64,000 nt of DNA from Xylographa opegraphella (taxonomy: Eukaryota), in assembly GCA_022813865.1 (NCBI GenBank), contig JALDZX010000022.1:1-64000 (forward strand), written 5' to 3'. The translations under genes were made by a program, and so were the position numbers. Positions 1,537 to 61,339 of the stretch are shown here, piece by piece. Within the stretch, counting starts at the first letter, position 1. The number at the start of each line of letters is the position of its first letter. The notes beneath the pieces are model-generated. The model saw only the letters and a program-made list of their open reading frames with translations. It did not search any database and was not told where the DNA came from.

Positions 1537-2810
1537 TCAGACAACCTCAGCGAGCCCCGAGCTCGAGCCAGGACGCACTCTCTTCGCGTCACGGTCAGCA
1601 CCAACAGATTCACTGGCCCGTCGTTTCGCCTTCTCACGATCATACTCTTCTTGTCGGACTGCCCGCCGCGCCTCCTTGTCTTTGCGTTCGTTTTCACGGC
1701 GGAGGGCTTTCGATTCGAACTCGTGCCAATCGCCTTGTAGATCCTTAAGTCTAGGACTTGTTAGCAAAGATGCCGGGAGTAATTGAGCATAGCTGTGGGG
1801 TAACTTACTCAACAGCCTGCACTGGCGCTGGCTCCTCCGTAGTGAAATACGGATGCTCTAGCACGTCCCCTGCCGTTGGTCGCTTCGCCGGATCGTATAA
1901 TAGCATGGCTTGCATCAGCTCAAAAGCCTGAGGTGTCAGACGGTCCCGATACTTCTCAGCGAAGACATTTGGCTTCTTTTCGGTCGGTCGTAGCAGTTCA
2001 AACCAAGCCATATCCACCAAGCCCGGCCATTCTGCCCTTGTCGGTGTCCCAAGTATATTATAGACTTTTTCGAGCTGGTTGATCTCACCTCCATCTCCCG
2101 GAAATATTGCATGCTTCGTAAATATTTCAATCATGACACAGGCTGCACTCCAGATATCCACCGCAGGTCCGTATTGTGTTTCTCCCAATAACAGTTCTGG
2201 AGGTCGGTACCATATTGTGATGACCCGATTCGTATAATCAAGCTGCCGCCGTTTAGCGTAGAAGCGCGCAAGACCGAAATCTGCTAGCTTGAGCTGACCA
2301 GTGTTGCTGACAAGGATATTAGCAGCCTTAATATCCCTATGCAGCACGCCCCGTCGGTGCAAGTAGTCGAGTCCTTCGAATAATTGCTTGGCCAAATGCT
2401 TCTTGTGCGATTGCTCAAGCTTGAAAGTTGGATGATTCAGAAGTCCAGTGAGATCGTGGGATAAGTATTCGAATACCATAAAGCAATCGTTCTTTTCCAC
2501 CATGACTTCTTGTAAGCTGACGATGTTGTCGTGCTTCAAGGATTGGAGGAGTTTGATCTCCCGGACCGCCGTGACGGGAAACCCGTCCTTTTCTCCTTCC
2601 ATCCTAATTTTCTTGAGGGCTACTAAGCTCTTCGTATATACGTGTATCGCTTTGAAAACTTTGCCATAAGTACCTGAACCGACGACCGACTCGTTACCAG
2701 GCTTTCTGTAGTATACGGAATCAGAGGCCGCAAAATCGGGCGGTAATGTAGGCCTTGGCTTCATGCGCTTCATAATCTTCTTTATTTTTTTCAGCTCTGG
2801 TGACTTTTCC

Positions 2811-2843
<33 letters not shown>

Positions 2844-5149
2844 TCCCTCTCCTTCTCCCTCTCCTTCTCCTTCTCCTTCTCTTTGTCAGGCCGTCTTTCT
2901 GTATAATGCTCACTCCTCCGATCCTCACGATGTTCTCTATCATTCCAACGTTCATCTCTGTAGCGATAATCATCCCGGTATTCACGATCTCGTCTATCAT
3001 CTCTCCGATCAATGCGAGTTTCCGTACGACGTTCAGGGCGTGATCTTGGTGCTATAGCTTCCCTCGAAGATGCAATAAATCCACCCCTGCCCTTGGTATG
3101 TTCTACTTGCGTCTCTTTTCGTGGTGGCGGAGGTTCTTTCATTTTCTGCGCAAGATCGGGGACAGGTTTTGCTGCGGGTGGAGGGGCAGCCTTAGCTTTA
3201 AAAGCGAAGCTGAATTTTGAGCCTTCTTTTGATCGTTGCGAGTTTTCAGAAGTGTGTCTCAAGGGTGGTGCCATCTGAGTTCCTTCCACAGGTTTTTCCT
3301 CCCCTGTTTCAATATCTTTAGCGCTCTGATCTTCAACTTGGAGGTCTTTCGACGGGCGGAAAGGGTTGTCGTCGTCCGGAGGTAATGGAGCAAGTCGCTC
3401 TGTGTGATGCTGCTGTTGAACCGGAGGTGGGCTCTGCGAGTGACCACTCTGCTGATGTGGGGTGCCATGGCTCTGGTCACTTTGCCCTCGGCCACGAGTG
3501 CCTCCATTAGCTGTCCATTGTAGATTTTGGAAATGTCCGCCACGGCCTCGTGGTGCCTGCACAGTGTAATTAGCAGGACCCGAGGCAGAGAACCTTCGAT
3601 CCTGCCCTTGGCCAAAATGCCCACCCCGCATTCCATTATGTCCTCCTCGATAAGAAGGACTTTGAAAACCGGGTTGCATCTGCTGAGGAGCAGGAGTGTA
3701 TGGAGAATGTTGAGGATTGGGGTAGTATTGTCCATGAGCACCATTTGGAGGATAGCTGTTTTGACGGAAAGGAGGCGAATACGCATTTATAGGTTGCCTG
3801 GGTTGATAGTCAGCAGACTGCTGACAGCTACAGAATAGACATGCTACTTACGCTGGTTGTCCATGATATTGTTGCTGCTGTTGGCCAGCCCATCCTCCTC
3901 GGCCATGGTTGTAAGGTGATGCCGATTGTGGAGATCCATGATGAGACGATGTAGGGGTCATGTATTGTGGGGAAGCAGCATACTGTTGACGAGTATCGAT
4001 ATGCGATGGGATTCGCCTTTGCGTTTGATGCATGTCACTTGCTTTCATGCCATGCATCGGGAAAGCATCCCGGATATGGGAATCTGCTGATCCATTACTA
4101 TCGTCAAAGCTAGGGATAGGTCGAGGTGGTGACAGTTGGCGGGGTTGTTCATCAAGAATCGACTGGATTGGACGTGTAGACGACTGCATCCTCCTATCGT
4201 CTGTGCTTGTTCGTTTTTGTGAAGGAGATGAGTCTCGGGTGGATTTGAAGTTTATTGGCTTCGTCACCAGGTGCTTCAGAGTGCGCAGTTTCTGCTTCTC
4301 AGATCGCTTTGATGATTTAGTCTCCTTTGCCGGATAATTAGATCTCTCTGGAGAACGGTCGCGGCGGCTAGTGTCAACAGGAGACAGTTTTCTAGACCTA
4401 CGAGGTGAATCCCGTCTGGTTTCCCGTGACCTTCGATGATGCTCTTCCCGTTGTTCGTGCCTAGATCGCGAAGGTGAAGACCTTTTCGATACCTCAGGGC
4501 GATAGTTATCCCGTAGTTCTGGTGACCTTGAGCGTCCCCGCCGAGATTGCGGCACGTAAGAATCGCGTGTGGACCGATCCTGGGATGTTGATACACGTTC
4601 GTAGGATCCTAACCGTTTATCTCTTCGGGGCGAGTGATAAGGAGAATAGGCTCTCTCCCAACGTCTGCCACCCGAGTCTACTCCTCTATCGGTATGACCT
4701 GGACTTCGAGCTCTCCTGCGCTCGGGACTGTAGTGACGTTGTCGAAGCTCGGGAGTGGGACTACGTGATCTCCTGTGGGATTTGGTGGAAGGAGACGGTT
4801 CTCGAGGTCGATTTCGCTTCGGGAGCCTCTCTCTGCTCAATTCCCTTGCGCGGTGTGACCCCTCACCGTCGTCTCTGGCTTGCGGTGAATGAGGCAAGAC
4901 CTTGTGCTCAACCCGGTGCGAGCGCTGTGTTGGCTCCCTCTGCCTCGATGTAGCCCGTCTGCTACTTTCAGCTGTAGCTCTGCCCTTGATCTTCAAACCC
5001 TCGCCAGTTTTTTCAGAGCGTCGGGCTGGAATGGGCGAAAAATCTCGTGGCACTGTCCTTTCCCTCTCTGTATGGTTGCGAGAATGCCTGTAATGGTCTT
5101 CTGCTCTCCACGGATCTCTCATCAACGGGCTCCGTCGCGACGCAGCCAT
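1537..5149 (-). CDS. CTK1: CTD kinase I catalytic subunit (CDK12/13-like); exons 5149-3852, 3797-1809, 1750-1537
   Basis: Kinase motifs GSGTYGKV, GFPVTAVREIKLL, HRDIKAAN, DFGLAR, YTNRVITIWYRPPE. RS-rich N-terminus. Two GTAAGT...YAG introns with GCTGAC/GCTAAC branch sites join three ORFs in frame. Confidence 0.93.
2806..2883 (-). repeat. Coding (GA)n/GAGAAG microsatellite encoding an E/K/R low-complexity tract in CTK1
   Basis: Visible (CT)n and CTCCTT repeats on the + strand; translates as KEKEKEKEREKERERERE. Confidence 0.9.
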
Positions 5150-24159: not shown

Positions 24160-26001
24160 TCAGCTGAGGTAGACACCATCCCATCCCTTGCCACCAGCTA
24201 CATTGCCCCCAACTGCTTCGCCGTGCATGATACCCTCAACATATGCGTATCCGATCAGCCAGTGGAGGACATGTGGACGATCTCGGTCGAAGAACAATTT
24301 GTTGTTCAGTCGCAGGATAAATGGTGTACGTCCACCCGCTAGGATGGCTACTTTGTCGCCTGCCAGGGTTTGAAGAGGGCCCAGGCCGATAAAGCCACTC
24401 CTTGTGCGGAAGAAAATGCGGGTTGTGACAAAGGGGAGCAGATGTTCCAAAGCCTGAGCGGTGTTCTTGTTCCGGAACTCGTCAGGAGTGTAGCCGCCAG
24501 CCTTCGTGACCCACTTATGCCACTTTTGGAAGAAGTCGGATCTTGTCGAGTCGGGATTTGTAGCGTTATGATGGTGAGACCTTTGTTTGGGGACCTTAGC
24601 TGGTCCCCAGATAGTATTCTGCGTAGCTGAAGATGAAACAGGAGATCGATGATGTGTTCCAGCGATCCGCTCCCACTCGAGGAAACAGGCGTTGAAAGCC
24701 TCGGCAAGTTTTTCTATAGACTTCACGCTCTTTAGTAAAACTTGGCTGGTGCTCAACAGCACAATCTCGTCGATATGATAGGCCCCTATAGCTAGCACGG
24801 ACCTTCCTAGAATAAGACGAGGGTTCGGTTTCATGTATCCGCATGAATTATATTCGAGTGTGCTTTTGAGAAGCGTACCATGTCCCCGCAGGTCTTTCCT
24901 CCAGTCGGGCACCCACGAAGGTAATCCAGGTCCTTGCTTCTTGAACGTGGAGTATAGAAAGATATCGAGATTTTGTTCGGATTCAATGATGGCCCGCGTG
25001 GTCTGCTGGTAAACATCGGAAACAGGCAGTGTGTAATCGGGCCGCAAGTTCATCTCCACCTCTGCCAAAGCCAAGAGACCATAGACCTTATCCCTTTCAT
25101 CCGAACACAAACCATTGGAAAAGGACCTTGTGGCCCATAAGAGGCTCCTCTTTTCGATCGCTCTCGTTCTGTTATCGATAAGCTTATACATGTTGTGTAT
25201 TGTATTCTCATGTGTTGACCCCAAGGATGCCTGCAAATCTTTTCTACTGCAGCATACGAGATGTTTCTTGAAGCTGTCAGCAAAGGAGCGGAAGACACTC
25301 CAGGGTAGCGTCGTTCTGCCGCACACAATATCCGCCTCCTTGCAGAGGGCGATCTCCTGAACGCACCATATTCTCAACCACCAAGGTCGGTTCATCAGCT
25401 TCTTCACAGCTTTGAAGCGCTTAGCAACTTGCATCTGCCAGGCGTGTCCATTCCATCTGGGCGCGAAGAAGATATCTGATTGCTTGAAATGTATATCCGT
25501 ACTTAATGCAAGCATGGTATGCAGAGCTAGATCGCTGTCATCCGATGCTTCACCCAACCAGGCCAGAACACGAGTAGCGGACCGGTATATCGATCCCATC
25601 TGTTGTACTTGGTGGGACCGCTCCTGCAAATTCGCTTGATCTATAGAGAGTGCATCAACCCAGAGCCAACGCGGATCATATCTATCCCGGAGGTATCGTA
25701 GAGCATCCCAAAGGTTGGATCCAATGCAGATCTCATGCCCGTCTAGTAAGATTCGCTGGCCGGAATGATTGGTTCCCCACGCATAGGACAATGCTTCATA
25801 CGGGGGACGGTCATCCAAAGAGATCTTGTTCAACTCGCAGACAATAGGTGCCGAACCAGTACCAGGATATAGACAGATCAGACGAATCTCGTGATCTGCT
25901 GGATCCAGTCGATGTTTCGAATAGATTGCAGAATACTCCGGGGACTTCGAGCCGGAGTATAGATTTTGAAGCTGGTTCTGAAGCCAGGTATTCGATTGCA
26001 T
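24160..26001 (-). CDS. HET-domain (HET-6-like) heterokaryon incompatibility protein
   Basis: YEALSYAWG, LWVDALSIDQ, QVQQMGSIYRSATRVLAWLG, WWLRIWCVQE, DERDKVYGLL, LPSWVPDW, LIGYAYVEGIMHGE. Confidence 0.95.
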   Translation of the reverse strand: MQSNTWLQNQLQNLYSGSKSPEYSAIYSKHRLDPADHEIRLICLYPGTGSAPIVCELNKISLDDRPPYEALSYAWGTNHSGQRILLDGHEICIGSNLWDALRYLRDRYDPRWLWVDALSIDQANLQERSHQVQQMGSIYRSATRVLAWLGEASDDSDLALHTMLALSTDIHFKQSDIFFAPRWNGHAWQMQVAKRFKAVKKLMNRPWWLRIWCVQEIALCKEADIVCGRTTLPWSVFRSFADSFKKHLVCCSRKDLQASLGSTHENTIHNMYKLIDNRTRAIEKRSLLWATRSFSNGLCSDERDKVYGLLALAEVEMNLRPDYTLPVSDVYQQTTRAIIESEQNLDIFLYSTFKKQGPGLPSWVPDWRKDLRGHGTLLKSTLEYNSCGYMKPNPRLILGRSVLAIGAYHIDEIVLLSTSQVLLKSVKSIEKLAEAFNACFLEWERIAGTHHRSPVSSSATQNTIWGPAKVPKQRSHHHNATNPDSTRSDFFQKWHKWVTKAGGYTPDEFRNKNTAQALEHLLPFVTTRIFFRTRSGFIGLGPLQTLAGDKVAILAGGRTPFILRLNNKLFFDRDRPHVLHWLIGYAYVEGIMHGEAVGGNVAGGKGWDGVYLS

Positions 26002-28462: not shown

Positions 28463-28512
28463 NNNNNNNNNNNNNNNNNNNNNNNNNNNNNNNNNNNNNN
28501 NNNNNNNNNNNN
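28463..28512. other. Assembly gap (N run)
   Basis: Run of n characters. Confidence 1.
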
Positions 28513-28795
28513 CTGGGTTGAAATCGTCCACCTAAAGCTTACGTTCTAGGCGTGCTTGTGTGATGAGTTGATGAGCTGTAACAAAAATGTTGAAATATTT
28601 TCAACTTTATGAACATTAAAATTCAATTCTGTGAGTTTTATATAATAAATTTGCGTTTTCAAAGTATAAATTTATTTTATATTTCAATTAAAATATTATA
28701 TATGCAAGGTTAATTAAACTTCCATTCTCCGTCCTTTGTATTTACATACAAAATAATTTAAACATTTTTGGCTAAAGCTAACAAACTCATTGATT

Positions 28796-30280: not shown

Positions 30281-30715
30281 GGGGGGAAAAAAAGCGAGAC
30301 GTACTAACCACATTAGAACACTAATGCAGCAACGCAATATCGATTATGTACATATTATCTGCCCATATACCCTCTATTTATTATATTTTGAAGATGTTTA
30401 GGCTATTCTAGAATCTTTTTATTAATGTTTCTGGTTTCTGATAATTAAATGTGCGCGGACTGCATAATTTAAGCATGCGATATCCTGAAGCTCTGGAAAC
30501 CCCGGCCTCGCGAAAAAGGGATGTTTTGGAACGTAGAAAAGGGCATTTTTGTTATTATCAATTAGGGCAAGAACCCGCGCCTTTATAAGTGTATTAGAGT
30601 ATTGATATAAAGTCATTGGGAGGTAATTATAATGATTAAAGAATAATAAAGATAACGCGTTTGTATTATTATTGTGTTCTAATGTGGTTAGTACGTCTCG
30701 CTTTTTTTTTCCCCC
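30281..30715. mobile_element. Non-autonomous TIR element (MITE-like), about 435 bp
   Basis: Perfect 28-bp inverted core GCGAGACGTACTAACCACATTAGAACAC (30294-30321 / 30674-30701), extended by G5-6 A7-9 termini. AT-rich non-coding interior. GCG on both flanks. Confidence 0.85.
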
Positions 30716-31469
30716 GCGAGCAAGTGTATAAGTAGCGAAGCTAGCCCACCTCCCGAATATAAACTCGAGTATTTGACCGCAAATTTATACTGGGCCATAT
30801 ATTACGTGCTATATTTCACCGAGTCATTATGGAATAAATTCAACCCAAAAATAACCCAATCTAGAATGGATTGAGTTATTCACCCCAAATCTTAGTCCAA
30901 CTTAGCCCATATCGTAGTATTTTACGAATTGTTTTAATTGATAAAGATATCGTACCGGTAAAATATTGTCCAGCAAGAGGTTACTTTTAATTTTAATGAA
31001 CAGGGGACCTGTAAAATATTTTCAGTTAAACATAAAATATTAAAAAAACGAGAAGCTATTCTAGTGCGATAAACTCGAGATTACCCCGTCTTCTATCATT
31101 CAATATTAATTAATTTTAAATAACAATTTTGTATTTACAGTCGGCAATCGCTTTAAAGCGACCGTAATATTGTAAAGTAAATGCGTCGGGGTGTCGGATC
31201 ACCCCCGGTCAGGCGAGCTCGGGCACAGCGCAAGCTGAGCCCGTCGCGGTTGTCCACCCTTCCTTCTTTGCCATGACTCAACGACTCTCCTACCATCCTT
31301 GACCTCTCCCCATCACTTCCTTTGCGTCTTTCCTTTGTCTCCTGGGCGGCCCTCCGTGTCGAGCTCCTTTTCAATCCCATTCCGTAAACCTTCCTCCTTT
31401 CGCCTCGTTATCCTCGTCGTTCAACTCCACCATCCTTCCAGCCCCCCTATCGCCCCAGCACCTTTCGCA

Positions 31470-33482: not shown

Positions 33483-36400
33483 TCAATTCCAACCTAGAGA
33501 GTTTTCTGCCATTACTGGAGCGCTGATGTTTTGTCGTCCAGAGCTGCCGCCGCTTCGACCGCTGCCTCTCGAGTCGCGCCCGCTGTAGCCATATGTGTCA
33601 TAATCGCCGCCGCTGTAGCCTCTTGCTCCACTCATTAGTGCCGTACCGGCACCGCTCCTGATCTCTCCATGGCTTTGCGACATACTCGATGTGTCAATCA
33701 GAGAGGGCGATCTGCGGTGAATTGAATTCCTCTTCCGGTATCTCTTGGCAACGAAGAACATTGCGGCACCGTAGAGCGCAGCGCCAGCAACAACCCCAAC
33801 ACCAATACCAACAGAAGCAGCTTTCACAGAACTCGAGTTGTCAGTACCCGCTCCTATTGGCGCGCCCTCGGTAACGACGGCACTGGCGGCGGATGTGGGC
33901 GAGCCAGTATTGCTTCCAGGATTAGCACCACCGAGATCACCACCAGCAAGAATCGGGAAGGAAGGATTGATCATGCTGACGAGAGTATTGACACTGTCGT
34001 TAGGGTTGTCGTACAGTGCACTGGTAGGCGTATGGATGTCAAGACTCAGATCATTGACGAAACTGGAAGGAATATATGCCATAGCTAGAGTCGTGACATA
34101 ACCTAGTGTAGCCGTTGTATCATATGGTTGAAGAGTCTGCATCGTGATGCTTGATACGTCGAGGCCAAGACCATATGCTAATCCCATGGGTAGATACGTG
34201 AACAGCTGATCTATTGATTTATAGTTTGAAACCACAAACTCGTAATTCAAGGGGAACAGAAAGCCGACCTGGACGAGAGTCGTGTTGTCCGGCTGTTGTG
34301 GGATTATACCACTAGGTGGGGCGACGACACGGGGCAACGCTGATGGAATCCCAGTAGGAGCGTTGGAAGCCGTGGAAGGCACGGGACTCGAGGCGGTCGG
34401 ATCGATAAATATGCTGGTAGGTAAGTACTGCGATGTAAGAGCATCTGATCCAGTAGGCACAAGGCTTGTTGGACCAGTAGTAGCAAATGAGACAACAGGA
34501 CTGATAGTGCTTGGGGCTGCGCTCTCAGATGCACTGCCGGAGACGACAGGCAATGCAGTGCCTGTGAGGGAACTCGTAAAAGTTGTCCCTGAGGCAGTGA
34601 TCACGGTTACATCAGATAAAGCTGATACAGATTCAGACGGAGACGAGCCGTTTGTGGTACTTGTCGCACTTGGCGGCACTCCGGTATCAGTGAGTGTACC
34701 AGAAATCTGTGAACCAGAGACCGTCGATGCTTGAGACACACTGCTTATAGCAGTCCCTCCAGAGATAGATCCCGAAGCGGTTGAAACCGGAACAGATACA
34801 ACTCCTGAGCTCAACGAGCTACTCCCACCAGTTATAGAAGCTCCCGGCAGGGTAGATCCGAAAGTATTGGTAGTAGAGGCGGGTAGGGCACTTATTAATG
34901 AAGAGCCAGTGACCCCACTAACGGTGCCGGTAGTGGCTGTTACGGAACCGGTGGGTGAGACTCCGATCGTGGAGATAGATGCACTCGCAGAAAGTATGAA
35001 GGACAGACTCACTGCAGTATCTGTCGATACAAGAGTGCCAGTCAGGAGGGTTCCAGAGGTCGTGATTGGTGGTATCACTACAGGGAGCGATACAGTTGAA
35101 CTTGCCACAAACGTGTCGGTAGGTATCGAGATCAGGGTCTCTGTTGGAGAAGATGTAGAAATTGGGATAATTTCAGTACCTGTATTAGTTGGCGACGATA
35201 CAGGAACAGGAAGTACCGAAACAGTTGTCGGCGCTGAACTCGGGATAGAAATTGTTTCTGTCCCAGTAGAAATATCAGTCGGCGTGAGAGTTGGAACTAT
35301 TGGTATCACGGTGGTGTCTGTTGGTGTAGGTAGTGGGAGTGACACAACAGGGGATGTTCCAGTCGGAGCAGAGATTGGCAGTGATACTATTATAGAGGTA
35401 TCTGTCGGGGCCGAAAGTGGGAGAGACACAACCACCGAAGTGTCGGTCGGGGCAGAGATAGGTAGTGATAAAACCACAGAAGTATCAGTCGGTGCGGAAA
35501 CTGGAGATATCACCACAGAAGTCCCAGTCGGTGCGGAAACCGGAAGGGATACTACTATAGAAGTTCCAGTGGGAGCAGAGACAGGAAGCGATATGACCAC
35601 AGACGTGTCAGTCGGAGCGGAGATTGGAAGCGATAGGACCACAGAAGTGTCCGTCGGAGCGGAGATCGGAAGCGAAAGGACCACGGAAGTGCCAGTTGGA
35701 GCTGAGATTGGAAGTGATATAACTAATGAGGTATCTGTAGACGCAGAACTTGGAGGTGGTATTAACGTGTCAGTTGGCGAAGAGCTTGGAATAGGTGCAG
35801 CTGTGGTGTCAGTCGGTGCAGAAATCGGAACCGGCACGACCGTATCTGTCTCCGTGGCAGTTGGGATGGGACTCGGTACCGGCGAGAGTGGAGTGTTAGT
35901 AGGCGCAGAAGTTGGGCTTGGTGTAGCCGTCTCCGTCGGAGCAGAGATTGGAACGGGCACCACAGTATCTGTTTCTGTGAGCGTTGGTAATGGCGCAGAA
36001 ACAGGAGCTGTTCCAGTAGGAAGCGGAGCAACAATGGACGACAATATCGACTGGATTATTGATGATAGTACCGAAGGAACTGCAGTTGGAAGATCCGTTG
36101 ACAAAGGAACCACCGAGGATATAGGCAGCGGTAATACTGTGTCGGTTTGCTGAGCACTCGTTGCATCGGAAGAAGCAGAGACAGGGACTACAGTCGGGAC
36201 AGAGCCTAGAGTTACCGAATCTGTGGTTGGAATACTCGCGGGAACCACTGAGGGGAAGATTGTCCCTGTAGATGTTCCACTAGGCGCAGCTGAAGCTGGC
36301 ACAGTGGGCGGGACACTTTGAGAAACCGATACACTATTCGATGGTTGAGACGAAGGAACAGCAGTATCAGTCGGGGGAGGCGGGGTAGGCGTATCTGGAG

Positions 36401-37196
36401 GTGTGTCCGAGGGTAATACTGTAGGTGTGGGTGTGTCCGAAGGGAGTACTGTAGGTGTTGGAGTGTCCGACGGGAGTACTGTAGGTATCACTGTGTCTGA
36501 GGATATTACTGTAGGTATCGCTGTGTCTGAGGGTAGTACTGAAGGTGTCGCTGTGTCTGAGGTTAGTACTGTAGGTATTGATGTATCCGTAGGTGTATCT
36601 GTTGGTAAAGGAGGAGCTACTGTAGGAGTCTCCGAAGGTTGAGCCGTGGGTGTAGGTGTAGATGTATCCGTAGGAGTGTCTGTTGGCAAAACTGTAGGTG
36701 TAGGACTGTCGGTCGATACATCTGTAGGCGTAGGTGTGTCCGTAGGGGTCTCCGTTGGCGGGGGAGGAGGAGAAATGGTTGGAGTGTCCGTTGGTACATC
36801 TGTAGGAAGACCTGGCGAGGAAAGCGGACTGGAAGTCGGTAATATATCTGAAGATTGCAAGGACTCCGTCGTATCGGAGATACTTGATACCAAACTGCTG
36901 AAGAGACTTTCGAGAGATGATGTATCTCGCCGCGAAGCCAGTGATGAATCTGGTTGATCTGCGGTTGTCACCGTATCAGGCAATGTTGCGGGAACGGAAG
37001 TCGGTGTCTCTGCAGGCGTTGATGCTGGTGTCGTAGTGTTTGAGAACACTTGACGCTTGACATGCCGGGGGAAGTAGTGCCTACGCTCCAGAGCCGTTTC
37101 CCGTGGTTGCGGAGGTACATTGAAACCGCATACTGGACCAAGGACAGACACAAACGCAAACGACGCCACGAGAGCATTTGGAGTGGTTCGGACCAT
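33483..37196 (-). CDS. MSB2: Signalling mucin, Msb2/Hkr1 type
   Basis: Signal peptide, long S/T/P-rich repeats, juxtamembrane VQVGFLFPLNYEFVV domain, one TM helix, and cytoplasmic tail ending ISAPVMAENSLGWN. Confidence 0.92.
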   Translation of the reverse strand: MVRTTPNALVASFAFVSVLGPVCGFNVPPQPRETALERRHYFPRHVKRQVFSNTTTPASTPAETPTSVPATLPDTVTTADQPDSSLASRRDTSSLESLFSSLVSSISDTTESLQSSDILPTSSPLSSPGLPTDVPTDTPTISPPPPPTETPTDTPTPTDVSTDSPTPTVLPTDTPTDTSTPTPTAQPSETPTVAPPLPTDTPTDTSIPTVLTSDTATPSVLPSDTAIPTVISSDTVIPTVLPSDTPTPTVLPSDTPTPTVLPSDTPPDTPTPPPPTDTAVPSSQPSNSVSVSQSVPPTVPASAAPSGTSTGTIFPSVVPASIPTTDSVTLGSVPTVVPVSASSDATSAQQTDTVLPLPISSVVPLSTDLPTAVPSVLSSIIQSILSSIVAPLPTGTAPVSAPLPTLTETDTVVPVPISAPTETATPSPTSAPTNTPLSPVPSPIPTATETDTVVPVPISAPTDTTAAPIPSSSPTDTLIPPPSSASTDTSLVISLPISAPTGTSVVLSLPISAPTDTSVVLSLPISAPTDTSVVISLPVSAPTGTSIVVSLPVSAPTGTSVVISPVSAPTDTSVVLSLPISAPTDTSVVVSLPLSAPTDTSIIVSLPISAPTGTSPVVSLPLPTPTDTTVIPIVPTLTPTDISTGTETISIPSSAPTTVSVLPVPVSSPTNTGTEIIPISTSSPTETLISIPTDTFVASSTVSLPVVIPPITTSGTLLTGTLVSTDTAVSLSFILSASASISTIGVSPTGSVTATTGTVSGVTGSSLISALPASTTNTFGSTLPGASITGGSSSLSSGVVSVPVSTASGSISGGTAISSVSQASTVSGSQISGTLTDTGVPPSATSTTNGSSPSESVSALSDVTVITASGTTFTSSLTGTALPVVSGSASESAAPSTISPVVSFATTGPTSLVPTGSDALTSQYLPTSIFIDPTASSPVPSTASNAPTGIPSALPRVVAPPSGIIPQQPDNTTLVQVGFLFPLNYEFVVSNYKSIDQLFTYLPMGLAYGLGLDVSSITMQTLQPYDTTATLGYVTTLAMAYIPSSFVNDLSLDIHTPTSALYDNPNDSVNTLVSMINPSFPILAGGDLGGANPGSNTGSPTSAASAVVTEGAPIGAGTDNSSSVKAASVGIGVGVVAGAALYGAAMFFVAKRYRKRNSIHRRSPSLIDTSSMSQSHGEIRSGAGTALMSGARGYSGGDYDTYGYSGRDSRGSGRSGGSSGRQNISAPVMAENSLGWN
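35330..35730 (-). repeat. Degenerate 39-bp (13-aa, SLPISAPTDTSVV-like) coding tandem repeats in MSB2
   Basis: About ten copies visible in the translation; synonymous positions have diverged. Confidence 0.85.
36380..36600 (-). repeat. 30-bp (10-aa, PTVLPSDTPT-like) coding tandem repeats in MSB2
   Basis: Repeating gtgtc(c/t)ga...tactgtaggt units on the + strand. Confidence 0.85.
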
Positions 37197-37267
37197 TTCG
37201 GAAGACTTTGTATATATATGGATACAGTAATTAAAGATAGTTGGTTTTGTAGAACGAGCGGTTCAAC

Positions 37268-44317: not shown

Positions 44318-45368
44318 ATGCCTTTCTCCCACCACAGTCATTCGGGTCAATTCTGCCTTCATGCGAAAGACGACCTGGAAGCCATTGTCCAAACGGCCAT
44401 CAGTAAAGGGATGGGGACTCTGGTCCTGACCGAGCACATGCCTCGGGACCAGGAGACGGACCTGTACCCAGAAGAGGTTGGTTCCTCGCCCACCATGAGC
44501 TCCGCACGCTGAGTGGGGTTTAGATCGAAGCTGGCAGCACGACGGACAGCCTGTTCAAGACATTCGACGACTACTACATCGAAGCAAAACGACTGCAGTC
44601 GTCATACTCGCTACAGATAGACATCCTGGTTGGCGTGGAAACAGACTGGATACGCCCATCTTCTGAGCAGCTTATAGGAAACCTCATAGAAAAATACAGC
44701 TTCGACACCCTGATCGGCTCCGTGCACCATGTCCATGGTATTCCCACGGACTTTGACCGGGAAACATACGAACGGGCTCGGGCGGTATCTGGAGGCACGG
44801 ATGAGATGCTCTACGCGGATTACTACGATGCGCAGCTGAAGATGCTGGAGGCAGTGAAGCCACCGATTGTGGGCCATTTCGATGTCATCAGACTTCTGAG
44901 CGATGACCCGAATGCGAGCATGAAGAAGCACGACGTGGTGTGGAATAGAATCTTCAGGAATCTATCCTTCATATCAAGCTACGGTGGTATGCTCGAAATC
45001 AACACGGCGGCACTCCGGAAAGGGATGGATGAGCCGTACCCGCAAGGCGAGGTCTGCCAGGTTCGTTGCCGATACGCTGTCGGGTGATTTGGATGGCTAA
45101 TGAAGCCCAGGAGTTTTTGAAGATGAACGGAGCGTTCGTCCTGTCGGATGACAGTCACGGCGTTGGTCAAGTGGGATTCGGCTTCACGAGGGCGGTGGAG
45201 TTCATGGAAGGTATAGGTGTCCGGACGTTGATCGTCCTGCAGCGGGGACTGATGACACGAGACGCTCGCTTCCGAGGAGTGTTCGGACGGCCGGTGCGTG
45301 TCCCAGACCTTCAGAAGAAGCATACGTTCTTCCAGGCTCCAGGCACTGCAGCAAACAGCCGGCCATGA
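44318..45368 (+). CDS. HIS2: Histidinol-phosphatase (PHP family); exons 44318-44476, 44524-45060, 45111-45368
   Basis: MPFSHHSHSGQFC, LTEHMPR, GSVHHV, VGHFDVIRL, EINTAALRKG, LSDDSHG. Confidence 0.94.
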
Positions 45369-56496: not shown

Positions 56497-58569
56497 TCAA
56501 CATTTTAGTACCATCCCAACCCACCAGTCCACAAACTCTTGCAAGCCCAATTGCCTCGACGGCGTCCCTCCGATCCCAACGACCTCTTTCCCCAGGCCCT
56601 CTCTTTCCCTCCACTCCTTCTCCGCTTTCTCCCCAGCTCGCCGCACAATCTCATCCTCATTCTCCGCCCGATACAGATCGCACCTGTCGCACTCCCCACA
56701 CGTCCCGCCGGCCGGTCGGAAATGCTGGCAGAAATGGCGGTAACCCTCGCCTTCGCCATCACCGCCGCCTTCCTGGGCCTGCGCTCGAAGTATGATGTTC
56801 ATTTCGTCAGCTGGCTGTCGAATGACGTTTTGCGCGGCTGACGTCTTACGCCCGAGGCCTTGACGGCATATATAGCACATAGTGTACCCACAGACGCAAA
56901 CCATCTTGTTGCAGCCACTGTCTTTGACAAAGCCGAGGCCGCATCTGGGGCAGGTGCGTTTGAGTGCAGCGGTCCTAGCGGCTTCAACGGTCGTTCGAAG
57001 GGAGAGTGTTGCAGATTCATGGCACATGTGCGGATCCTGCCAAGGCTTGTGGCATTGAAGACACGAGGTACGAAGACAGGATGGTGAACGGCATTTGAAG
57101 CGAGAAGACAGGTAGGTCTTACGAGTTAGCTTGTCGCAGGAGTGATTAAGCAGCACCGAAGGCGCAGGGAGAGCAAACAGCCGTGCAAGAATGGCATATA
57201 GACAAAGCAATCCAAGGAAGTTGAAAGACACGGCAAGTAGAAGCAGTGTACGAACAGGCCGCGAGGTATTGAGACCCCAGCCAAGACTGTTAGAGAGATA
57301 GAGCTCATCAGCCTCGGCGTAGTTGCAAAACGGGCACCGCACGAGAGGAACTTGTGCTTTGATAAGCGCTTGATCGGCTAGACGTGACTCCAGCTTCTTC
57401 CACATCTGCACTCCCCCTTTGGCGCTATGACCGATCGCTCGGTAGGCGAGTTCGTGGGGTATGCAGCCGTTGCAAGGTATGGGATCTGTTGGAGCTAAAC
57501 AAGCTATCTGACCTCGGGTATGATCAATATTGAGACCCCATGATTGGCCGTAGAGTGCCTCTGAAACTGCATGCTGTATACAGTTGAAGCAAATTATATG
57601 GGTACCCGTCGTGCAAGTCGCCATATGCTCAAATGTCGTCTCTGAAAAGCAGCACTCGCACTCGTAAAGAGCACTGGCTTCTTCTGCCTCTTGCTCGTTG
57701 AGGAGGGTTGCAAGCTCAACATTGATGGCCTCTTGTGCTTGATGGCGCTTCTCAAGTAAAGGTTTCAAGATTGTCCTGTAAAGCTCAGAGTCAAGTTCCT
57801 TGTTTCCGCTTTCTCGTAGACTGGGGATCGGAACTGACCCCCCTTCTGCAGTTTTCGTCCAAATGAGCATAAAGTGTTTGTCTGATACTTCTTGCGCAGG
57901 CTTTCGCCACTTGAGCAAAAACGTAGAGAAGCTACTCCTCCAACTCTTGCTTGCTAGCCCTAGCAGCACCGGCCTCGAAGAAGTGTAGTAATGATTTTGC
58001 TCGGCCAAAACTCCGTCTACTGTACTTCGATTTAGGGCTTTAAACTCTTGATACAACACAGTCCTCACTGCTTGCTTGTAGTTTTCTGAGCGGAACAGTT
58101 CGTGTACAGGCACTTGTATCCTATCTCGGCCATCACCCACATCTCCTAGAAGCTGCCGGATCTCGGAGTACTGCTGCGGAGCGTCCGATCGAGTGTCCAG
58201 TCTATTGATGCGCCATCGGCTATTGACCCACTTGGCCTGGTGTTTGATCAACTGCTCCGCTACTATGTGCAGTCGGCTGTCTCCACTAAATGTACCAAGC
58301 ATCTCTCGAAAGACCTCAGGACGAACATTCGGAAAAATGTCGGCAAGCACGAGAAGGGCGTTGTTGAGGTCCGCAAGACTGGCGAATTTCCTGGGAGCCT
58401 GAGTGAAGACATCCCCGGCAGATGCCAGGACGGTCGAGAGCTCAGTACTGGCTGATCGGATGGTCTTAGGGACGGATGTACTCGAAGATGGGGAACGGAA
58501 TTGTCGTCGGCGGCTTTCAGACGGTAACTGCTCGTCTGAGCGAGAGGAGCGAAATGCGGCGAAGACCAT
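56497..58569 (-). CDS. RBR (RING-IBR-RING) E3 ubiquitin ligase with a CUE-like N-terminus (RNF216/TRIAD3-like)
   Basis: LADIFPNV (CUE-like), ECECCF...HIICFNC, RCPFCNY, SCLQCHKPW..HMC, CPRCGLGFVKDSGCNKMVCVCGYTMCYICR. First in-frame ATG at 58569. Confidence 0.9.
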   Translation of the reverse strand: MVFAAFRSSRSDEQLPSESRRRQFRSPSSSTSVPKTIRSASTELSTVLASAGDVFTQAPRKFASLADLNNALLVLADIFPNVRPEVFREMLGTFSGDSRLHIVAEQLIKHQAKWVNSRWRINRLDTRSDAPQQYSEIRQLLGDVGDGRDRIQVPVHELFRSENYKQAVRTVLYQEFKALNRSTVDGVLAEQNHYYTSSRPVLLGLASKSWRSSFSTFLLKWRKPAQEVSDKHFMLIWTKTAEGGSVPIPSLRESGNKELDSELYRTILKPLLEKRHQAQEAINVELATLLNEQEAEEASALYECECCFSETTFEHMATCTTGTHIICFNCIQHAVSEALYGQSWGLNIDHTRGQIACLAPTDPIPCNGCIPHELAYRAIGHSAKGGVQMWKKLESRLADQALIKAQVPLVRCPFCNYAEADELYLSNSLGWGLNTSRPVRTLLLLAVSFNFLGLLCLYAILARLFALPAPSVLLNHSCDKLTRKTYLSSRFKCRSPSCLRTSCLQCHKPWQDPHMCHESATLSLRTTVEAARTAALKRTCPRCGLGFVKDSGCNKMVCVCGYTMCYICRQGLGRKTSAAQNVIRQPADEMNIILRAQAQEGGGDGEGEGYRHFCQHFRPAGGTCGECDRCDLYRAENEDEIVRRAGEKAEKEWREREGLGKEVVGIGGTPSRQLGLQEFVDWWVGMVLKC

Positions 58570-58735
58570 CTTCTTAAGGATGGCTGGCGTGTGGGCCCTA
58601 CATGCTGCTGGGAGTGAAAGACAGCTCTGTCCTTTCAGTCGAGAAGAGTGTGTAGGTGCAAAGACCAAGCTATCAAACAAGCCTCAGTCAAATTTGTAAT
58701 AATATTGTAAAATAAGAACTCTCTCGCTTAAAACA

Positions 58736-58890
58736 GGCCTGATGGTACGAAAATACGAAATCGAGTTGAGTTTGTCTCTTTGCTGACAATTTGCACAGGT
58801 CTAGTGGTATGATTGTCGCTTCGGGTTCGCCTGAGTATCTTAGATACTTAGATTTGTGACAGGCCCCGGGTTCAAATCCCGGTCAGGCCC
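58736..58890 (+). tRNA. tRNA-Pro(CGG) with a spliceosomal-type intron (58745-58798) and a canonical intron (58826-58854)
   Basis: Acceptor stem GGCCTGA/TCAGGCC (perfect), TG|GTCTAGTGGTATGAT, anticodon stem GTCGC/GTGAC with CGG at 58822-58824, T-arm CCGGG-TTCAAAT-CCCGG, discriminator C. Mature length 72 nt. T5 run at 58897. Confidence 0.92.
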
Positions 58891-59398
58891 TGAATATTTT
58901 TGTCGTCATTCTCGATCGCGGTACGACGGCGGTACATGGGCACTATCGTCTTTATTCACTGTTGAGAACAATGTATGCACTCACTATAGCCAGACAATCG
59001 GTAACTTTTTGCCAACCTAAACCAAGCGACAGTCCTTCTTTGGGTAGAAATGCCTGGGCGTCTTGACGATACAGATTATTTACGATCCATCGAGCTTGTG
59101 GAAACATCAATCGATTACGCTCTATTGGTCGTTGTGAATAACATCTATTTGAACGTGCGAAATGTGCAGCGCAGAGACGTAGTTTCATACTAGATACCTA
59201 TCATAAGCTCCATACGCGACGTTAAGGAAATGGGGTATTTTAGCAATAGCAACACCAGGAAATGCCATATCAATACAGTGATGATTTCCGTAAGCCATAG
59301 TCCTTCCGTGAAGCACAATATCATCTGCGAGATTCAGCAATAGTCCTCTAAACCATGACACCGTAGCTCCAGTCTTCAATAATATCAACATGCTGTAA

Positions 59399-61339
59399 TT
59401 AAGCTCCTGAGCCCTTAAGCAGATCACTCCCAGCTTGTCGAATCCTTTTCATTTCCTTGTCGACTCGTAGCGATGCCCCGCCGACTGTCTGTTCGCGGTG
59501 GGATATCTCTTCCTCATACTTCGTTGCAATCTTCCTCTTTTCTTGTCTAGCGTCTTTGTACTTGGTCAGGATGTCTGAAAACAGCCCCAATACCATATCG
59601 CCACATTCCTCATATTTGTCCATCGTCAACGACGAAAAGAAAGAGTATAGCTTTTCTGATCGCTGTTCATCTGTGAGATCTTTCAAGTCCTTAACAAATT
59701 CAAATTGCTTGATTAGCGGCCCGGAGCGAACTTCTTCAGGAAATATTTGGACAGAACCTGTAGGGTCGAAGTCGAAACTCTCAGACCTGAGCTGATCGTA
59801 AGTTGTCTTGGACAACTGATCTTCGGTGTAGTCTAGATCAATGATACGCTTCTGACCACGTGCTGATATCACTTCAGACTGGTGAGGTAGTTGGCCGACA
59901 GTTGGGTTCTTACGAAGGGGCAGTACTTTTTCATCGACCCTCACCTCATACGGCGGCGAGTATAACAAATTCTCGTTCAAGTCTACGCCAGATACGGGAG
60001 GTTCAGGTGTTCTGCCATTGCTCCATTCCTGGGAAATATAATGGATTTTCTGAAGCTGTACCGACCGCTGTTGATCTTCTCCTGCTAAAGTTTGATCGTG
60101 TACGGTGTCATGATGATGCTGTCGGGAGGTATTAGCTGGTTGTCGAGCCACTTCCATCGAATGGTGGTGTTGCAGCGGTCTTGAAGGTCTTGCCTGGGCA
60201 GATGTGGTGTTTTTAGTCAACACTGAAACACACAGACTTTCACCTGTAGGTCTCACAGAAGTCTGACTTCGTGGGTTTGACTGTAACACATCCATACCTG
60301 AAGGGGATCGGAAGTTTGCTGCATACGCATTTCTACCTTGCTGATGTGTAATCGCCAGACTTTCGGAGCCTTTTGCCGATGGAATATGAAAAAAGCCAGG
60401 ACTGCTTGACCTACCGCGATACACTACTTCGCGGCATGGGAGGTGGCCCGGGAGATCCAAATCCTCGGCCTCATGGTCGGAAGTTGGTGGAAATCTAAGG
60501 TTTCCAAGTGAACCTCCGGGAACCTGTTGATTGGGATGAATTGTATTCTGCATTGCATCGAGTTCTCTTTCTAGTGCTTGTGCCGTAGCTGGTGGTATCA
60601 AAGCACTCATACTGGAAATATCGAGGGTGGGATCATCTTCAGCTCCCTCACCCTCCCTAGTGCTATCGGACTCGCTGTCATCTTCGTCTTCGGCGTAATC
60701 GGCGCCCTCCCATACATTATAGCGTCCATGAGATCGAGCAGCCATATAACCGGCGTGATCCATTCCAAAGGACTCAACATGCGTAGATATACCACGTACA
60801 TTGTCACTGTCAACTGGCTCCTGTGTGTTACCGCCTTCATCATAAGTCGCTACAGATTGGTTGTGATGAGTCTGGCTGTCTCCTACCTGGACGCCATCAC
60901 TTATCGTCGTGGTATCATCGAAATCGTCGCCAATATCAGTATCAAACCCATCGCGATTATTGTTCTGATGCTGCAAAGGATCTGCTTCGACTATATGAGC
61001 GACCAAGTCCTTGGAGTCCTTGGAGGGCCATGGTAGTTCGGCATCTGGATGAGATGCAACCTCTGACAAGTTCACAGGATCTGGGGCTGCAAACAAAGGC
61101 CTAGAATGCTCTAATCTCGTCGGCTGCTGCTGAATGCGAGCATTTTGGCCTGCTAGCTGCCGTCGCGAGTTGATGGCTGGAGTTAATGGGTAATTTGTCC
61201 TGTTAACCTTGTATTGACGGGATAGCCCATTCTGCGGGTTGATATTTCTGACATCGGGCAAAGCATGACGCTTTAAGGCATCATCGTGAGAAGGACTTTT
61301 TACATAATCAAACAGCGGTTTCTGTTGAGGAATAGTCAT
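59399..61339 (-). CDS. ECM11 C-terminal domain protein
   Basis: Disordered N-terminus, then LDYTEDQLSKTTYDQLRSESFDFDP...FFSSLTMDKYEECGD... and a coiled-coil C-terminus. Confidence 0.8.
   Translation of the reverse strand: MTIPQQKPLFDYVKSPSHDDALKRHALPDVRNINPQNGLSRQYKVNRTNYPLTPAINSRRQLAGQNARIQQQPTRLEHSRPLFAAPDPVNLSEVASHPDAELPWPSKDSKDLVAHIVEADPLQHQNNNRDGFDTDIGDDFDDTTTISDGVQVGDSQTHHNQSVATYDEGGNTQEPVDSDNVRGISTHVESFGMDHAGYMAARSHGRYNVWEGADYAEDEDDSESDSTREGEGAEDDPTLDISSMSALIPPATAQALERELDAMQNTIHPNQQVPGGSLGNLRFPPTSDHEAEDLDLPGHLPCREVVYRGRSSSPGFFHIPSAKGSESLAITHQQGRNAYAANFRSPSGMDVLQSNPRSQTSVRPTGESLCVSVLTKNTTSAQARPSRPLQHHHSMEVARQPANTSRQHHHDTVHDQTLAGEDQQRSVQLQKIHYISQEWSNGRTPEPPVSGVDLNENLLYSPPYEVRVDEKVLPLRKNPTVGQLPHQSEVISARGQKRIIDLDYTEDQLSKTTYDQLRSESFDFDPTGSVQIFPEEVRSGPLIKQFEFVKDLKDLTDEQRSEKLYSFFSSLTMDKYEECGDMVLGLFSDILTKYKDARQEKRKIATKYEEEISHREQTVGGASLRVDKEMKRIRQAGSDLLKGSGA

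What the first reader, a model, noticed from the sequence alone, without database searches (positions are those of the whole stretch)
58745..58798. tRNA-Pro(CGG): GT-AG intron after nucleotide 9, leaving a 9-nt first exon
Seen: GGCCTGATG|GTACGA...TTTGCTGAC AATTTGCACAG|GTCTAGTGG. The orphan GGCCTGA 54 nt upstream of the tRNA body is the perfect partner of the 3' TCAGGCC. The sequence directly before GTCTAG cannot form the acceptor stem. The site is a G|GT proto-splice context with GGT on both sides. Inference: this fits reverse splicing or an insertion with a short duplication.
Basis: seen in the sequence. Interest (0 to 1): 0.92.

Follow-up and report, generated by a model that had tools for sequence, protein, structure and literature searches.

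The report
mRNA-type intron inside a tRNA gene
A proline tRNA gene of a lichen-forming fungus is interrupted nine bases in by a 54-base insert that looks like the introns of the fungus's own protein genes, which would be a first for tRNAs if the cell really splices it out.

Summary
58736-58744 (GGCCTGATG) supplies tRNA nucleotides 1-9. 58745-58798 is a 54-nt insert, and 58799-58890 is the rest of a tRNA-Pro(CGG) that also has an ordinary 29-nt anticodon-loop intron. ARAGORN and Rfam find nothing until the insert is removed in silico; a clean 72-nt cloverleaf then appears. The insert has no bulge-helix-bulge motif in any of its four equivalent registers, no terminal inverted repeats and no structure of its own. 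It matches four homology-verified mRNA introns of the same window in length, +5 G, branch motif, branch distance and YAG; only +6 (A, not T) deviates. Only 3 of 127,686 54-mers in the window carry that signal set. Named relatives place the host in or near Xylographa. Lichen fungi are the group known for spliceosomal introns in rDNA, and fungal U6 genes (Pol III) carry them too. In 7 literature searches I found no report of one in a tRNA gene. Whether it is spliced or the gene is dead cannot be decided here: no RNA data, and no related fungal genomes in reach. Best reading: a spliceosomal-type intron in a tRNA gene.

The parts
58690..58716 (+). AT-rich, TATA-like block, -46 to -20 from tRNA nucleotide 1. 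It could be the TFIIIB/TBP site for a transcript that includes exon 1, or it could belong to the divergent RBR E3 ligase gene.
   Evidence: 24 of 27 bases are A/T. Windows this AT-rich (23 or more of 27) are 140 of 63,897 positions, in 14 clusters of the window. Function is inferred only.
58736..58744 (+). Exon 1: tRNA nucleotides 1-9 (5' acceptor strand GGCCTGA plus U8 and G9).
   Evidence: 7/7 complementarity to 58883-58889 (I2). Paired in the MFE and centroid folds.
58745..58798 (+). 54-nt spliceosomal-type insert between tRNA nucleotides 9 and 10. 5' site GTACGA is at 58745-58750. Branch motif CTGAC is at 58783-58787, with the branch A at 58786, 12 nt before the 3' end. 3' site CAG is at 58796-58798.
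   Evidence: Signals read and compared there with 4 verified introns. Unique in the window. No own structure (z +0.93). No BHB. No T run of 4 or more.
58799..58825 (+). Exon 2: tRNA nucleotides 10-37, covering the D arm (A-box remainder GTCTAGTGG at 58799-58807), the 5' anticodon stem and anticodon CGG at 58822-58824.
   Evidence: ARAGORN cloverleaf after in-silico removal of the insert.
58826..58854 (+). Canonical 29-nt tRNA intron after position 37, with an internal hairpin (58831-58840 / 58842-58851). The register can slide by one T.
   Evidence: ARAGORN intron call. Inverted repeat I1.
58855..58890 (+). Exon 3: tRNA nucleotides 38-73, covering the 3' anticodon stem, variable loop, T arm (B box GGTTCAAATCC at 58869-58879), 3' acceptor strand and discriminator C.
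58897..58901 (+). T5 run, a Pol III terminator-like site 6 nt after the discriminator.
   Evidence: It is the only run of 4 or more T between 58720 and 58905.

Best explanation
This is a nuclear tRNA-Pro(CGG) gene of a Xylographa-like lichen-forming ascomycete that carries two different kinds of intervening sequence.

The 29-nt one after position 37 is an ordinary tRNA intron, to be cut out by the tRNA splicing endonuclease and ligase.

The 54-nt one between nucleotides 9 and 10 is an mRNA-type (U2-type, GT-AG) spliceosomal intron that has landed in a tRNA gene. [quoted passage not shown] A DNA-level intron transposition using GGT microhomology is the alternative route.

Proposed maturation has three steps. 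Transcription starts upstream of exon 1, positioned by the AT-rich block at about -30 to -45, and runs to the T5 terminator. The spliceosome joins G9 to G10. The endonuclease pathway then removes the anticodon-loop intron, and RNase P and RNase Z trim the ends.

Shown: the anatomy, the intact cloverleaf after removal, the spliceosomal-type signals, the absence of a BHB motif, and the lichen-fungus host.

Inferred: the mode of origin, the transcription start, and that splicing happens at all.
For: - Removing 58745-58798 turns a locus that ARAGORN and Rfam cannot see into a clean 72-nt tRNA-Pro(CGG) with a canonical 29-nt intron.
- The insert is 54 nt with ATG|GTACGA, CTGAC with the branch A 12 nt from the end, and CAG|GTC. 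Four introns of the same window, verified by gap-free or gap-exact alignment to homologues, are 47, 50, 54 and 58 nt. They have GTNNGT, CTRAN 10-12 nt from the end, and YAG. One of them, 3851..3798, has the same length, the same CTGAC, the same 12-nt distance and the same CAG.
- A full signal set is found in only 3 of 127,686 54-mers.
- Other intron types are not supported. There is no BHB in 0 of 4 registers, no own structure, and none of the 13 inverted-repeat pairs sits at the insert ends.
- All stems of the tRNA are intact, the A-box remainder, B box and T5 terminator are present, and there is no T4+ run inside the precursor.
- A rare AT-rich block sits at -46..-20 of exon 1. The equivalent stretch upstream of the displaced A box is only 16 of 27 A/T.
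- The host is a lichen-forming fungus. The top named hits are Xylographa spp. at 82-91% identity.
- There is precedent. Lichen fungi carry spliceosomal introns in Pol I rDNA that are removed, and a 57-bp one is removed even from yeast rRNA (PMC8527467, passages). The S. pombe U6 gene, a Pol III gene, has an intron removed by the spliceosome and attributed to reverse splicing; fungal U6 genes have up to four, and U1, U2, U5 and rRNA genes have them too (PMC5855946, section 14 read in full).
Against: - There is no RNA evidence and no comparative evidence of any kind. The collections in reach hold no fungal genomes.
- The 5' site has A at +6, where 4 of 4 verified introns have T. It is the weakest match to the usual consensus among the five sites (my reading).
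- The insert leaves an almost intact A box (only T8 becomes A) directly after the intron. Standard TFIIIC-directed placement of TFIIIB would then start transcription inside the insert and lose exon 1. This follows from the textbook model as summarised in PMC3978253 (passages) and is my inference.
- A review states that insertions in D or T arms of eukaryotic tRNA genes are usually taken as pseudogenes (PMC4090602, section 5 read in full).
- tRNA-Pro(CGG) may be redundant in this genome. The copy number is unknown.
- The AT-rich block may simply be the promoter of the divergent RBR gene, whose ATG is 167 nt away.
- My loose and strict intron motifs are not enriched in the window over shuffles (88 vs 78.6 +/- 10.2; 12 vs 11.4 +/- 3.6). 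Such signal sets also arise by chance somewhere in 64 kb. The argument rests on the position being fixed by the tRNA, not on the motif alone.
Confidence: 0.5

Rival explanations
1. Dead or dying gene. The same intron-like sequence was inserted into a redundant tRNA-Pro(CGG) copy, but the gene no longer makes tRNA. Pol III starts inside the insert as directed by the displaced A box, or the Pol III transcript is never seen by the spliceosome. The intact look reflects a very recent insertion.
For: - Insertion-bearing eukaryotic tRNA genes are generally regarded as pseudogenes (PMC4090602, section 5).
- The A box is essentially intact downstream of the insert, so the canonical start site would fall within it (inference from PMC3978253 passages).
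- The 5' site is suboptimal at +6.
- There is no second copy and no conservation data to show selection.
Against: - Every stem of the cloverleaf, the 9-nt exon, both intron signal sets, the B box and the terminator are undamaged. Without selection this is expected only for a very young insertion.
- Spliceosomes do remove introns from Pol I and Pol III transcripts in fungi (PMC8527467; PMC5855946).
- An upstream TATA-like block is in place for a start before exon 1.
Confidence: 0.35
2. Transposon-derived intron (introner or MITE-like), or filler DNA captured at a double-strand break. On this reading the GGT at both ends is a 3-bp target-site duplication that supplies part of the splice sites. 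This rival concerns origin, not function.
For: - There is a GGT direct repeat at both junctions.
- Micromonas introners make 3-nt duplications in which one splice site comes from the duplicated target (PMC11282704, passages).
- Introner-like elements exist in fungi (same review).
Against: - None of the 13 inverted-repeat pairs found in 58700-58900 sits at the insert ends.
- The 51-nt core is very short for a transposon.
- There is no other copy in the window at up to 3 mismatches (1 match, itself) or by blastn-short (best non-self hit 11 nt, E 0.53).
- G|GT is also what a proto-splice site would give without any duplication.
Confidence: 0.1
3. Non-canonical tRNA intron of the archaeal, red-algal or nucleomorph kind, removed by the tRNA splicing endonuclease through a bulge-helix-bulge motif. 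On this reading GT-AG is a coincidence.
For: - Non-canonical positions and multiple introns per tRNA gene are known in Archaea, Cyanidioschyzon merolae and nucleomorphs (PMC4090602, section 5).
- This gene does have a second, canonical intron.
Against: - No register gives the 4-bp central helix: the best is 2 of 4 pairs, in 0 of 4 registers.
- The one 4/4 helix in the relaxed scan has the wrong bulge geometry.
- The insert alone folds no better than shuffles; 159 of 200 shuffles fold at least as well.
- The fungal endonuclease measures from the mature domain to position 37/38 (review).
- The full spliceosomal signal set is very unlikely by chance.
Confidence: 0.03
4. Chance resemblance or assembly artefact. 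The upstream 9-mer and the GT-AG frame are coincidental, and the tRNA body is a 5'-truncated fragment.
For: The 9-mer does occur once more in the window, at 18056. Intron-like signal sets are not rarer in the window than in shuffles.
Against: The joint requirement is far below one expected event per genome region. It needs the 9-mer within about 150 nt upstream (roughly 7e-4), flush with a gap that carries the full signal set (3 of 127,686 54-mers). The nearest N run is at 28463-28512, far from the locus.
Confidence: 0.02

Closest known systems
Spliceosomal introns in the nuclear rDNA of lichen-forming ascomycetes (Bhattacharya et al. 2000, known to me only through citing papers; Cladonia grayi 57-bp intron, PMC8527467)
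   Same: The host group is the same (Lecanoromycetes-type lichen fungi). They are short, about 50-60 nt, with canonical 5' site, branch and 3' site. They sit in a structural RNA gene that Pol II does not transcribe, and they are thought to depend on the spliceosome.
   Different: Those are in Pol I rRNA genes present in many identical copies, and their removal from rRNA has been shown. This one is in a single Pol III-type tRNA gene, 9 nt from the 5' end, splits the A-box region, and its removal is not shown.
mRNA-type introns of fungal U6 snRNA genes (S. pombe and others; also U1, U2 and U5), reviewed in PMC5855946
   Same: A spliceosomal intron in a Pol III-transcribed small RNA gene. It has canonical signals but is otherwise unconserved. 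Reverse splicing followed by reverse transcription is the accepted origin hypothesis.
   Different: U6 sits in the spliceosome's active site, which explains both insertion and removal. A tRNA has no such proximity. U6 has an upstream TATA and a different promoter layout.
Non-canonical (BHB) tRNA introns of Archaea, Cyanidioschyzon merolae and nucleomorphs (PMC4090602, PMC3978253)
   Same: An intervening sequence at a non-37/38 position. There is more than one intron in one tRNA gene, and the internal promoter is interrupted, with an upstream TATA-like block.
   Different: Those rely on a bulge-helix-bulge motif and the tRNA endonuclease. Here the motif is absent and the signals are spliceosomal.
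Introners / introner-like elements (PMC11282704)
   Same: A short direct repeat at the junctions that could contribute to the splice sites, and recent intron gain.
   Different: There are no terminal inverted repeats and no other copies in the 64 kb. The target is a tRNA gene rather than a protein gene.

Membership tests
U2-type spliceosomal (GT-AG) intron | GT at the 5' end and AG at the 3' end | tested here: met
   58745-58746 is GT and 58797-58798 is AG. This holds in one of four equivalent registers.
U2-type spliceosomal (GT-AG) intron | Extended 5' site like the host's own introns (GTNNGT) | tested here: inconclusive
   The site is GTACGA. +5 G matches 4 of 4 verified window introns. +6 is A where 4 of 4 have T.
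U2-type spliceosomal (GT-AG) intron | Branch motif CTRAY at the host's usual distance from the 3' site, followed by YAG | tested here: met
   CTGAC with its A 12 nt from the end, then CAG. The verified introns have 10, 10, 11 and 12 nt.
U2-type spliceosomal (GT-AG) intron | Length within the host's intron range | tested here: met
   54 nt, against 47, 50, 54 and 58 nt.
U2-type spliceosomal (GT-AG) intron | Removed by the spliceosome through a lariat, giving joined exons | not testable with these tools
   No RNA data.
BHB-type non-canonical tRNA intron | Two 3-nt bulges holding the cut sites, around a 4-bp helix | tested here: not met
   0 of 4 registers qualify, the best having 2 of 4 central pairs. 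The relaxed scan gave one helix with the wrong geometry.
Canonical eukaryotic tRNA intron | Position 37/38 in the anticodon loop | tested here: not met
   The 54-nt insert is at 9/10. The separate 29-nt intron at 58826-58854 does meet this.
Introner / MITE-derived intron | Terminal inverted repeats next to a target-site duplication | tested here: not met
   The GGT repeat is present, but none of the 13 inverted pairs lies at the insert ends.
Introner / MITE-derived intron | Many similar copies in the genome | tested here: inconclusive
   There are none in the 64-kb window. The rest of the genome is not available.
Degenerate small group I intron | 5' exon ends in U and the intron ends in G | tested here: not met
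   By reading the four registers: the exon ends in U only after nt 8 or 11, and the intron then ends in A or T. The rule itself is recalled.
tRNA pseudogene | Damaged cloverleaf or lost promoter/terminator elements beyond the insertion | tested here: not met
   ARAGORN gives a normal cloverleaf once the insert is removed. The B box and T5 are present.
tRNA pseudogene | No mature RNA product; intact paralogue elsewhere | not testable with these tools
   No RNA data, and no genome beyond the window.
Ectopic spliceosomal introns of fungal non-mRNA genes (lichen rDNA, U6) | Canonical splice signals inside a gene for a structural RNA not made by Pol II, in a fungus | tested here: met
   Signals. 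tRNA gene. Host close to Xylographa.
Ectopic spliceosomal introns of fungal non-mRNA genes (lichen rDNA, U6) | Absent from the mature RNA | not testable with these tools
   No RNA data.

The most novel reading that the evidence does not exclude
This is the first tRNA whose maturation needs both splicing systems of the eukaryotic nucleus. The spliceosome joins a 9-nt first exon to the body, and the tRNA endonuclease then removes the anticodon-loop intron. It would be one visible case of a wider colonisation of non-mRNA genes (rRNA and now tRNA) by spliceosomal introns in lichen-forming fungi. It might be exploited, as has been proposed for rDNA introns, to tie the supply of translation components to spliceosome capacity.
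Probability: 0.3. Interest if true: 0.9.

Novelty: new variant of a known kind. Interest (0 to 1): 0.7.

Why it matters
Reviews of tRNA processing treat spliceosomal and tRNA introns as separate worlds (PMC12530127 and PMC10275265, passages). A tRNA gene carrying both kinds would break that separation.

It would also give a natural substrate for several open questions:
- Can spliceosomes act on Pol III transcripts other than U6?
- How is the transcription start chosen when the A box is pushed 54 bp downstream?
- Does reverse splicing into abundant RNAs still create introns today?

There is a practical point as well. Standard tRNA finders miss such genes completely, so tRNA sets of lichen fungi, and perhaps of other fungi, may be under-counted. 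Even if this copy is dead, it records a very recent intron-transposition event whose target site is known exactly.

Tried and rejected
- BHB-type intron: rejected.
- Structured or self-splicing element: the insert folds no better than shuffles. The group I end rule fails in all four registers (my reading).
- Transposon with terminal repeats: none found.
- Second copy or donor intron in the window: none. The only notable 13-nt hit is the branch region of the kinase intron at 1758-1770.
- Ab initio intron calling by bridging open frames: too noisy to use. It gave 1,771 candidates in 147 clusters, and 8 of 360 passed the filters.
- Window-wide enrichment of intron motifs over shuffles: none. I replaced this with four homology-verified introns.
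- Rfam at permissive threshold on 58600-59000: no tRNA hit, only weak tmRNA-like and mascRNA-like matches to the T arm.
- The bacterial-type promoter and terminator scan is not applicable and found nothing.
- Relatives: two scans of genome contigs, which holds bacteria and archaea only, gave 0 hits and 1 chance hit at the end of a bacterial aspartyl-tRNA synthetase-like reading frame (my reading).
- Bhattacharya et al. 2000 is not held. I know it only from citing passages.
- Literature: seven searches were judged from listings and abstract starts, plus passages of nine papers. They turned up no spliceosomal intron in a tRNA gene. Subscription journals are mostly outside the library.

Full report
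WHAT IS THERE

On the + strand the sequence reads as follows:
- GGCCTGATG at 58736-58744.
- A 54-nt stretch at 58745-58798: GTACGAAAATACG...CTTTGCTGACAATTTGCACAG.
- Then GTCTAGTGGTATGATTGTCGCTTCGGG, 29 further nt, TGTGACAGGCCCCGGGTTCAAATCCCGGTCAGGCCC ending at 58890, and a T5 run at 58897-58901.

ARAGORN finds no tRNA in the window, with or without intron search. Rfam finds nothing at gathering thresholds. A permissive Rfam scan of 58600-59000 gives no tRNA hit.

I deleted 58745-58798 in a script. ARAGORN then reports a 72-nt tRNA-Pro(CGG) with a normal cloverleaf and a 29-nt intron after position 37. The intact locus gives nothing in standard mode. At lowered thresholds it gives only a spurious 'tRNA-Ser(ACT)' with an 81-nt intron.

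So the gene has three exons: 58736-58744, 58799-58825 and 58855-58890.

The 7-nt acceptor pairing between 58736-58742 and 58883-58889 is perfect (I2). It forms in both the MFE and the centroid fold of the 155-nt precursor (-52.1 kcal/mol, z -2.58, 2 of 200 shuffles as good). The 9 nt directly before G10 cannot replace it: they give 0 Watson-Crick pairs and 1 G-U (my reading).

GGT occurs at both junctions. Excision after nt 8, 9, 10 or 11 therefore gives the same product, and only the register after nt 9 is GT-AG.

IS IT MORE THAN CHANCE?

The 9-mer occurs twice in the window, the other copy at 18056. The shuffle mean is 0.58, and 7 of 100 shuffles have two or more. A copy within about 150 nt upstream on the right strand therefore has a probability of roughly 7e-4.

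I counted all 127,686 54-mers of the window on both strands:
- 476 are GT..AG.
- 25 also have CTRAY 8-30 nt from the 3' end.
- 3, the insert included, also have +3 R, +5 G and YAG.

Allowing for four registers, a random filler would look like this about once in 10,000.

One result goes the other way. My loose and strict intron patterns are not enriched in the window over dinucleotide shuffles (88 vs 78.6 +/- 10.2; 12 vs 11.4 +/- 3.6). Such patterns do arise by chance somewhere in 64 kb. The force of the argument is that the tRNA structure fixes the boundaries here, independently of the splice signals.

WHAT KIND OF INTRON?

I tested the known kinds.

(a) Bulge-helix-bulge, as in Archaea, Cyanidioschyzon and nucleomorphs. 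None of the 4 registers gives the 4-bp central helix, and the best has 2 of 4 pairs. A relaxed scan found one 4/4 helix with the wrong bulge geometry.

(b) Structured or self-splicing. The insert folds at -6.1 kcal/mol, z +0.93, and 159 of 200 shuffles fold at least as well. The group I end rule (exon ends in U, intron ends in G; recalled) fails in all four registers.

(c) Transposon. None of the 13 inverted-repeat pairs in 58700-58900 lies at the insert ends. No second copy exists in the window (1 match, itself, at up to 3 mismatches; best non-self hit 11 nt, E 0.53).

(d) Spliceosomal. I established four real introns of this genome from homologues.
- In the CTD-kinase gene (- strand), removing 3851..3798 and 1808..1751 removes an 18-residue gap and a frame break against Xylographa and other homologues.
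- In the histidinol-phosphatase gene (+ strand), removing 44477-44523 and 45061-45110 gives a protein that aligns to the X. soralifera orthologue over 315 residues with 0 gaps.

The four introns compare with the tRNA insert as follows:

| Intron | Length | 5' site | Branch motif (nt from A to 3' end) | 3' site |
|---|---|---|---|---|
| Histidinol phosphatase 44477-44523 | 47 | GTTGGT | CTGAG (11) | TAG |
| Histidinol phosphatase 45061-45110 | 50 | GTTCGT | CTAAT (10) | CAG |
| Kinase 3851..3798 | 54 | GTAAGT | CTGAC (12) | CAG |
| Kinase 1808..1751 | 58 | GTAAGT | CTAAC (10) | TAG |
| tRNA insert 58745-58798 | 54 | GTACGA | CTGAC (12) | CAG |

The insert is inside the host range on every count except +6, where it has A and all four verified introns have T. 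Even the context TTTGCTRACAA is shared with the 1808..1751 intron.

THE HOST

Pfam shows HET and ECM11 domains, typical of filamentous ascomycetes. The best named relatives of three window proteins are Xylographa species:
- Kinase: 90-91% identity to X. vitiligo and X. soralifera.
- RBR ligase: 82-87% to X. pallens, X. carneopallida, X. bjoerkii and X. trunciseda.
- Histidinol phosphatase: 85% to X. soralifera.
Other lichen-forming fungi follow. The window therefore comes from a Xylographa-like lichen-forming fungus.

CONTEXT AND TRANSCRIPTION

The tRNA gene lies between two genes on the - strand:
- An intronless RBR-type E3 ligase, CDS 58569..56500, confirmed against 3 homologues.
- An ECM11-domain ORF at 59399-61339.

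Exon 1 starts 167 nt from the ligase ATG, in divergent orientation.

An AT-rich block (24 of 27 A/T) sits at 58690-58716, which is -46..-20 of exon 1. Windows that AT-rich make up 140 of 63,897 positions, in 14 clusters. The only T run of 4 or more between 58720 and 58905 is the terminal T5.

The insert leaves the A box almost whole right after the intron, with only T8 replaced by A. Under the standard model TFIIIC binds the A box (positions 8-19) and the B box (52-62) and places TFIIIB upstream (PMC3978253, passages). The start would then fall inside the insert and exon 1 would be lost. The stretch where TFIIIB would sit in that case is only 16 of 27 A/T.

[quoted passage not shown] A TATA-directed start before exon 1 is therefore possible but not shown. 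The AT block may equally serve the ligase gene. Pol II transcription from a bidirectional promoter is a further possibility that I cannot test.

WHAT IS KNOWN

A review of tRNA introns says that insertions in the D or T arms of eukaryotic tRNA genes are mostly taken as pseudogenes. It says real non-canonical introns are confined to nucleomorphs and C. merolae, where BHB motifs matter (PMC4090602, section 5 read in full).

Spliceosomal introns do occur in non-mRNA genes of fungi:
- The single S. pombe U6 gene, transcribed by Pol III, has one that the spliceosome removes. It is ascribed to reverse splicing plus reverse transcription.
- Fungal U6 genes carry up to four.
- U1, U2, U5 and rRNA genes have them too (PMC5855946, section 14 read in full).

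The rRNA cases are from ascomycetes, and lichen fungi are singled out. Their rDNA holds 'a few ectopic spliceosomal introns'. [quoted passage not shown] The original report, Bhattacharya et al. 2000, is not held.

Two recent tRNA papers describe spliceosomal and tRNA introns as unrelated classes, and I saw no exception in them (PMC12530127 and PMC10275265, passages only). Seven full-text searches were judged from listings. They gave no report of a spliceosomal intron in a tRNA gene. The library lacks most subscription journals, so this is not proof of absence.

VERDICT

The insert is, with high confidence (about 0.85), a spliceosomal-type intron sequence sitting in an otherwise intact tRNA-Pro(CGG) gene.

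I commit to the reading that it is a genuine ectopic spliceosomal intron, acquired by intron transposition into a G|GT site and still removed, so that the gene needs both splicing systems (0.5). The main rival is the same insertion having killed a redundant gene copy very recently (0.35).

What favours function:
- Every tRNA element and both intron signal sets are undamaged.
- The upstream AT block is in place.
- There is precedent in this very group of fungi.

What favours death:
- The displaced but intact A box.
- The weak +6 position of the 5' site.
- The general experience with insertion-bearing tRNA genes.
- The complete lack of RNA or comparative data.

The origin is open. Reverse splicing and a DNA-level insertion with a 3-bp duplication are both compatible with the GGT repeat. 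A classical introner is not supported within the window.

I rate it a new variant of a known kind, namely ectopic spliceosomal introns of fungal structural-RNA genes, here in a tRNA gene. Interest is 0.7.

Noticed in passing
window 58829-58834 (inside the canonical 29-nt intron): GCCTGA, a 6-nt copy of the 5' acceptor strand, lies in the anticodon-loop intron and can pair with the 3' acceptor strand (D8 and I10). The weak mascRNA-like Rfam hit uses this pairing plus the T arm (18.5 bits, E 0.33). It may be chance, or it may be an alternative minihelix fold of the precursor.
   Followed up: partly
window 58746-58760: The 5' part of the insert holds a tandem 8-nt duplication, TACGAAA(A)TACGAAA (D4), so the 5' splice-site region is partly repeated.
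   Followed up: no
window 58709-58721 and 58750-58762: A 13-nt stretch of the upstream AT-rich block (AAAATAAGAACTC) recurs at 85% identity inside the insert (AAAATACGAAATC) (D2). It is A-rich and possibly chance.
   Followed up: no
window 58852 and 58820: In the 29-nt intron, the base 3 nt before the 3' cut (A58852) can pair with position 32 (T58820). As I recall, the anticodon-intron pair rule expects this of a normal endonuclease substrate. This is a by-eye reading and the rule is recalled.
   Followed up: no
window 33483-37262 (- strand): A 1237-1259 aa open frame has no Pfam match, lies in a region of strong GC skew (+0.25 at 34-38 kb) and has a 428-aa open frame on the opposite strand. 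It is probably a low-complexity protein.
   Followed up: no
window 24160-26001 (- strand): An ORF with a HET (heterokaryon incompatibility) domain, E 3e-32.
   Followed up: no
window 28463-28512: A run of 50 N (assembly gap), flanked by several very AT-rich stretches at 28583-28750 and 30373-31115.
   Followed up: no
window 1540-5149 (- strand): Annotated homologues of the CTD-kinase differ widely in their N-terminal extent: 596 to 1072 aa among close relatives. Part of the region upstream of 4189 aligns only to the 1072-aa X. soralifera model. Gene models in this group look inconsistent.
   Followed up: partly
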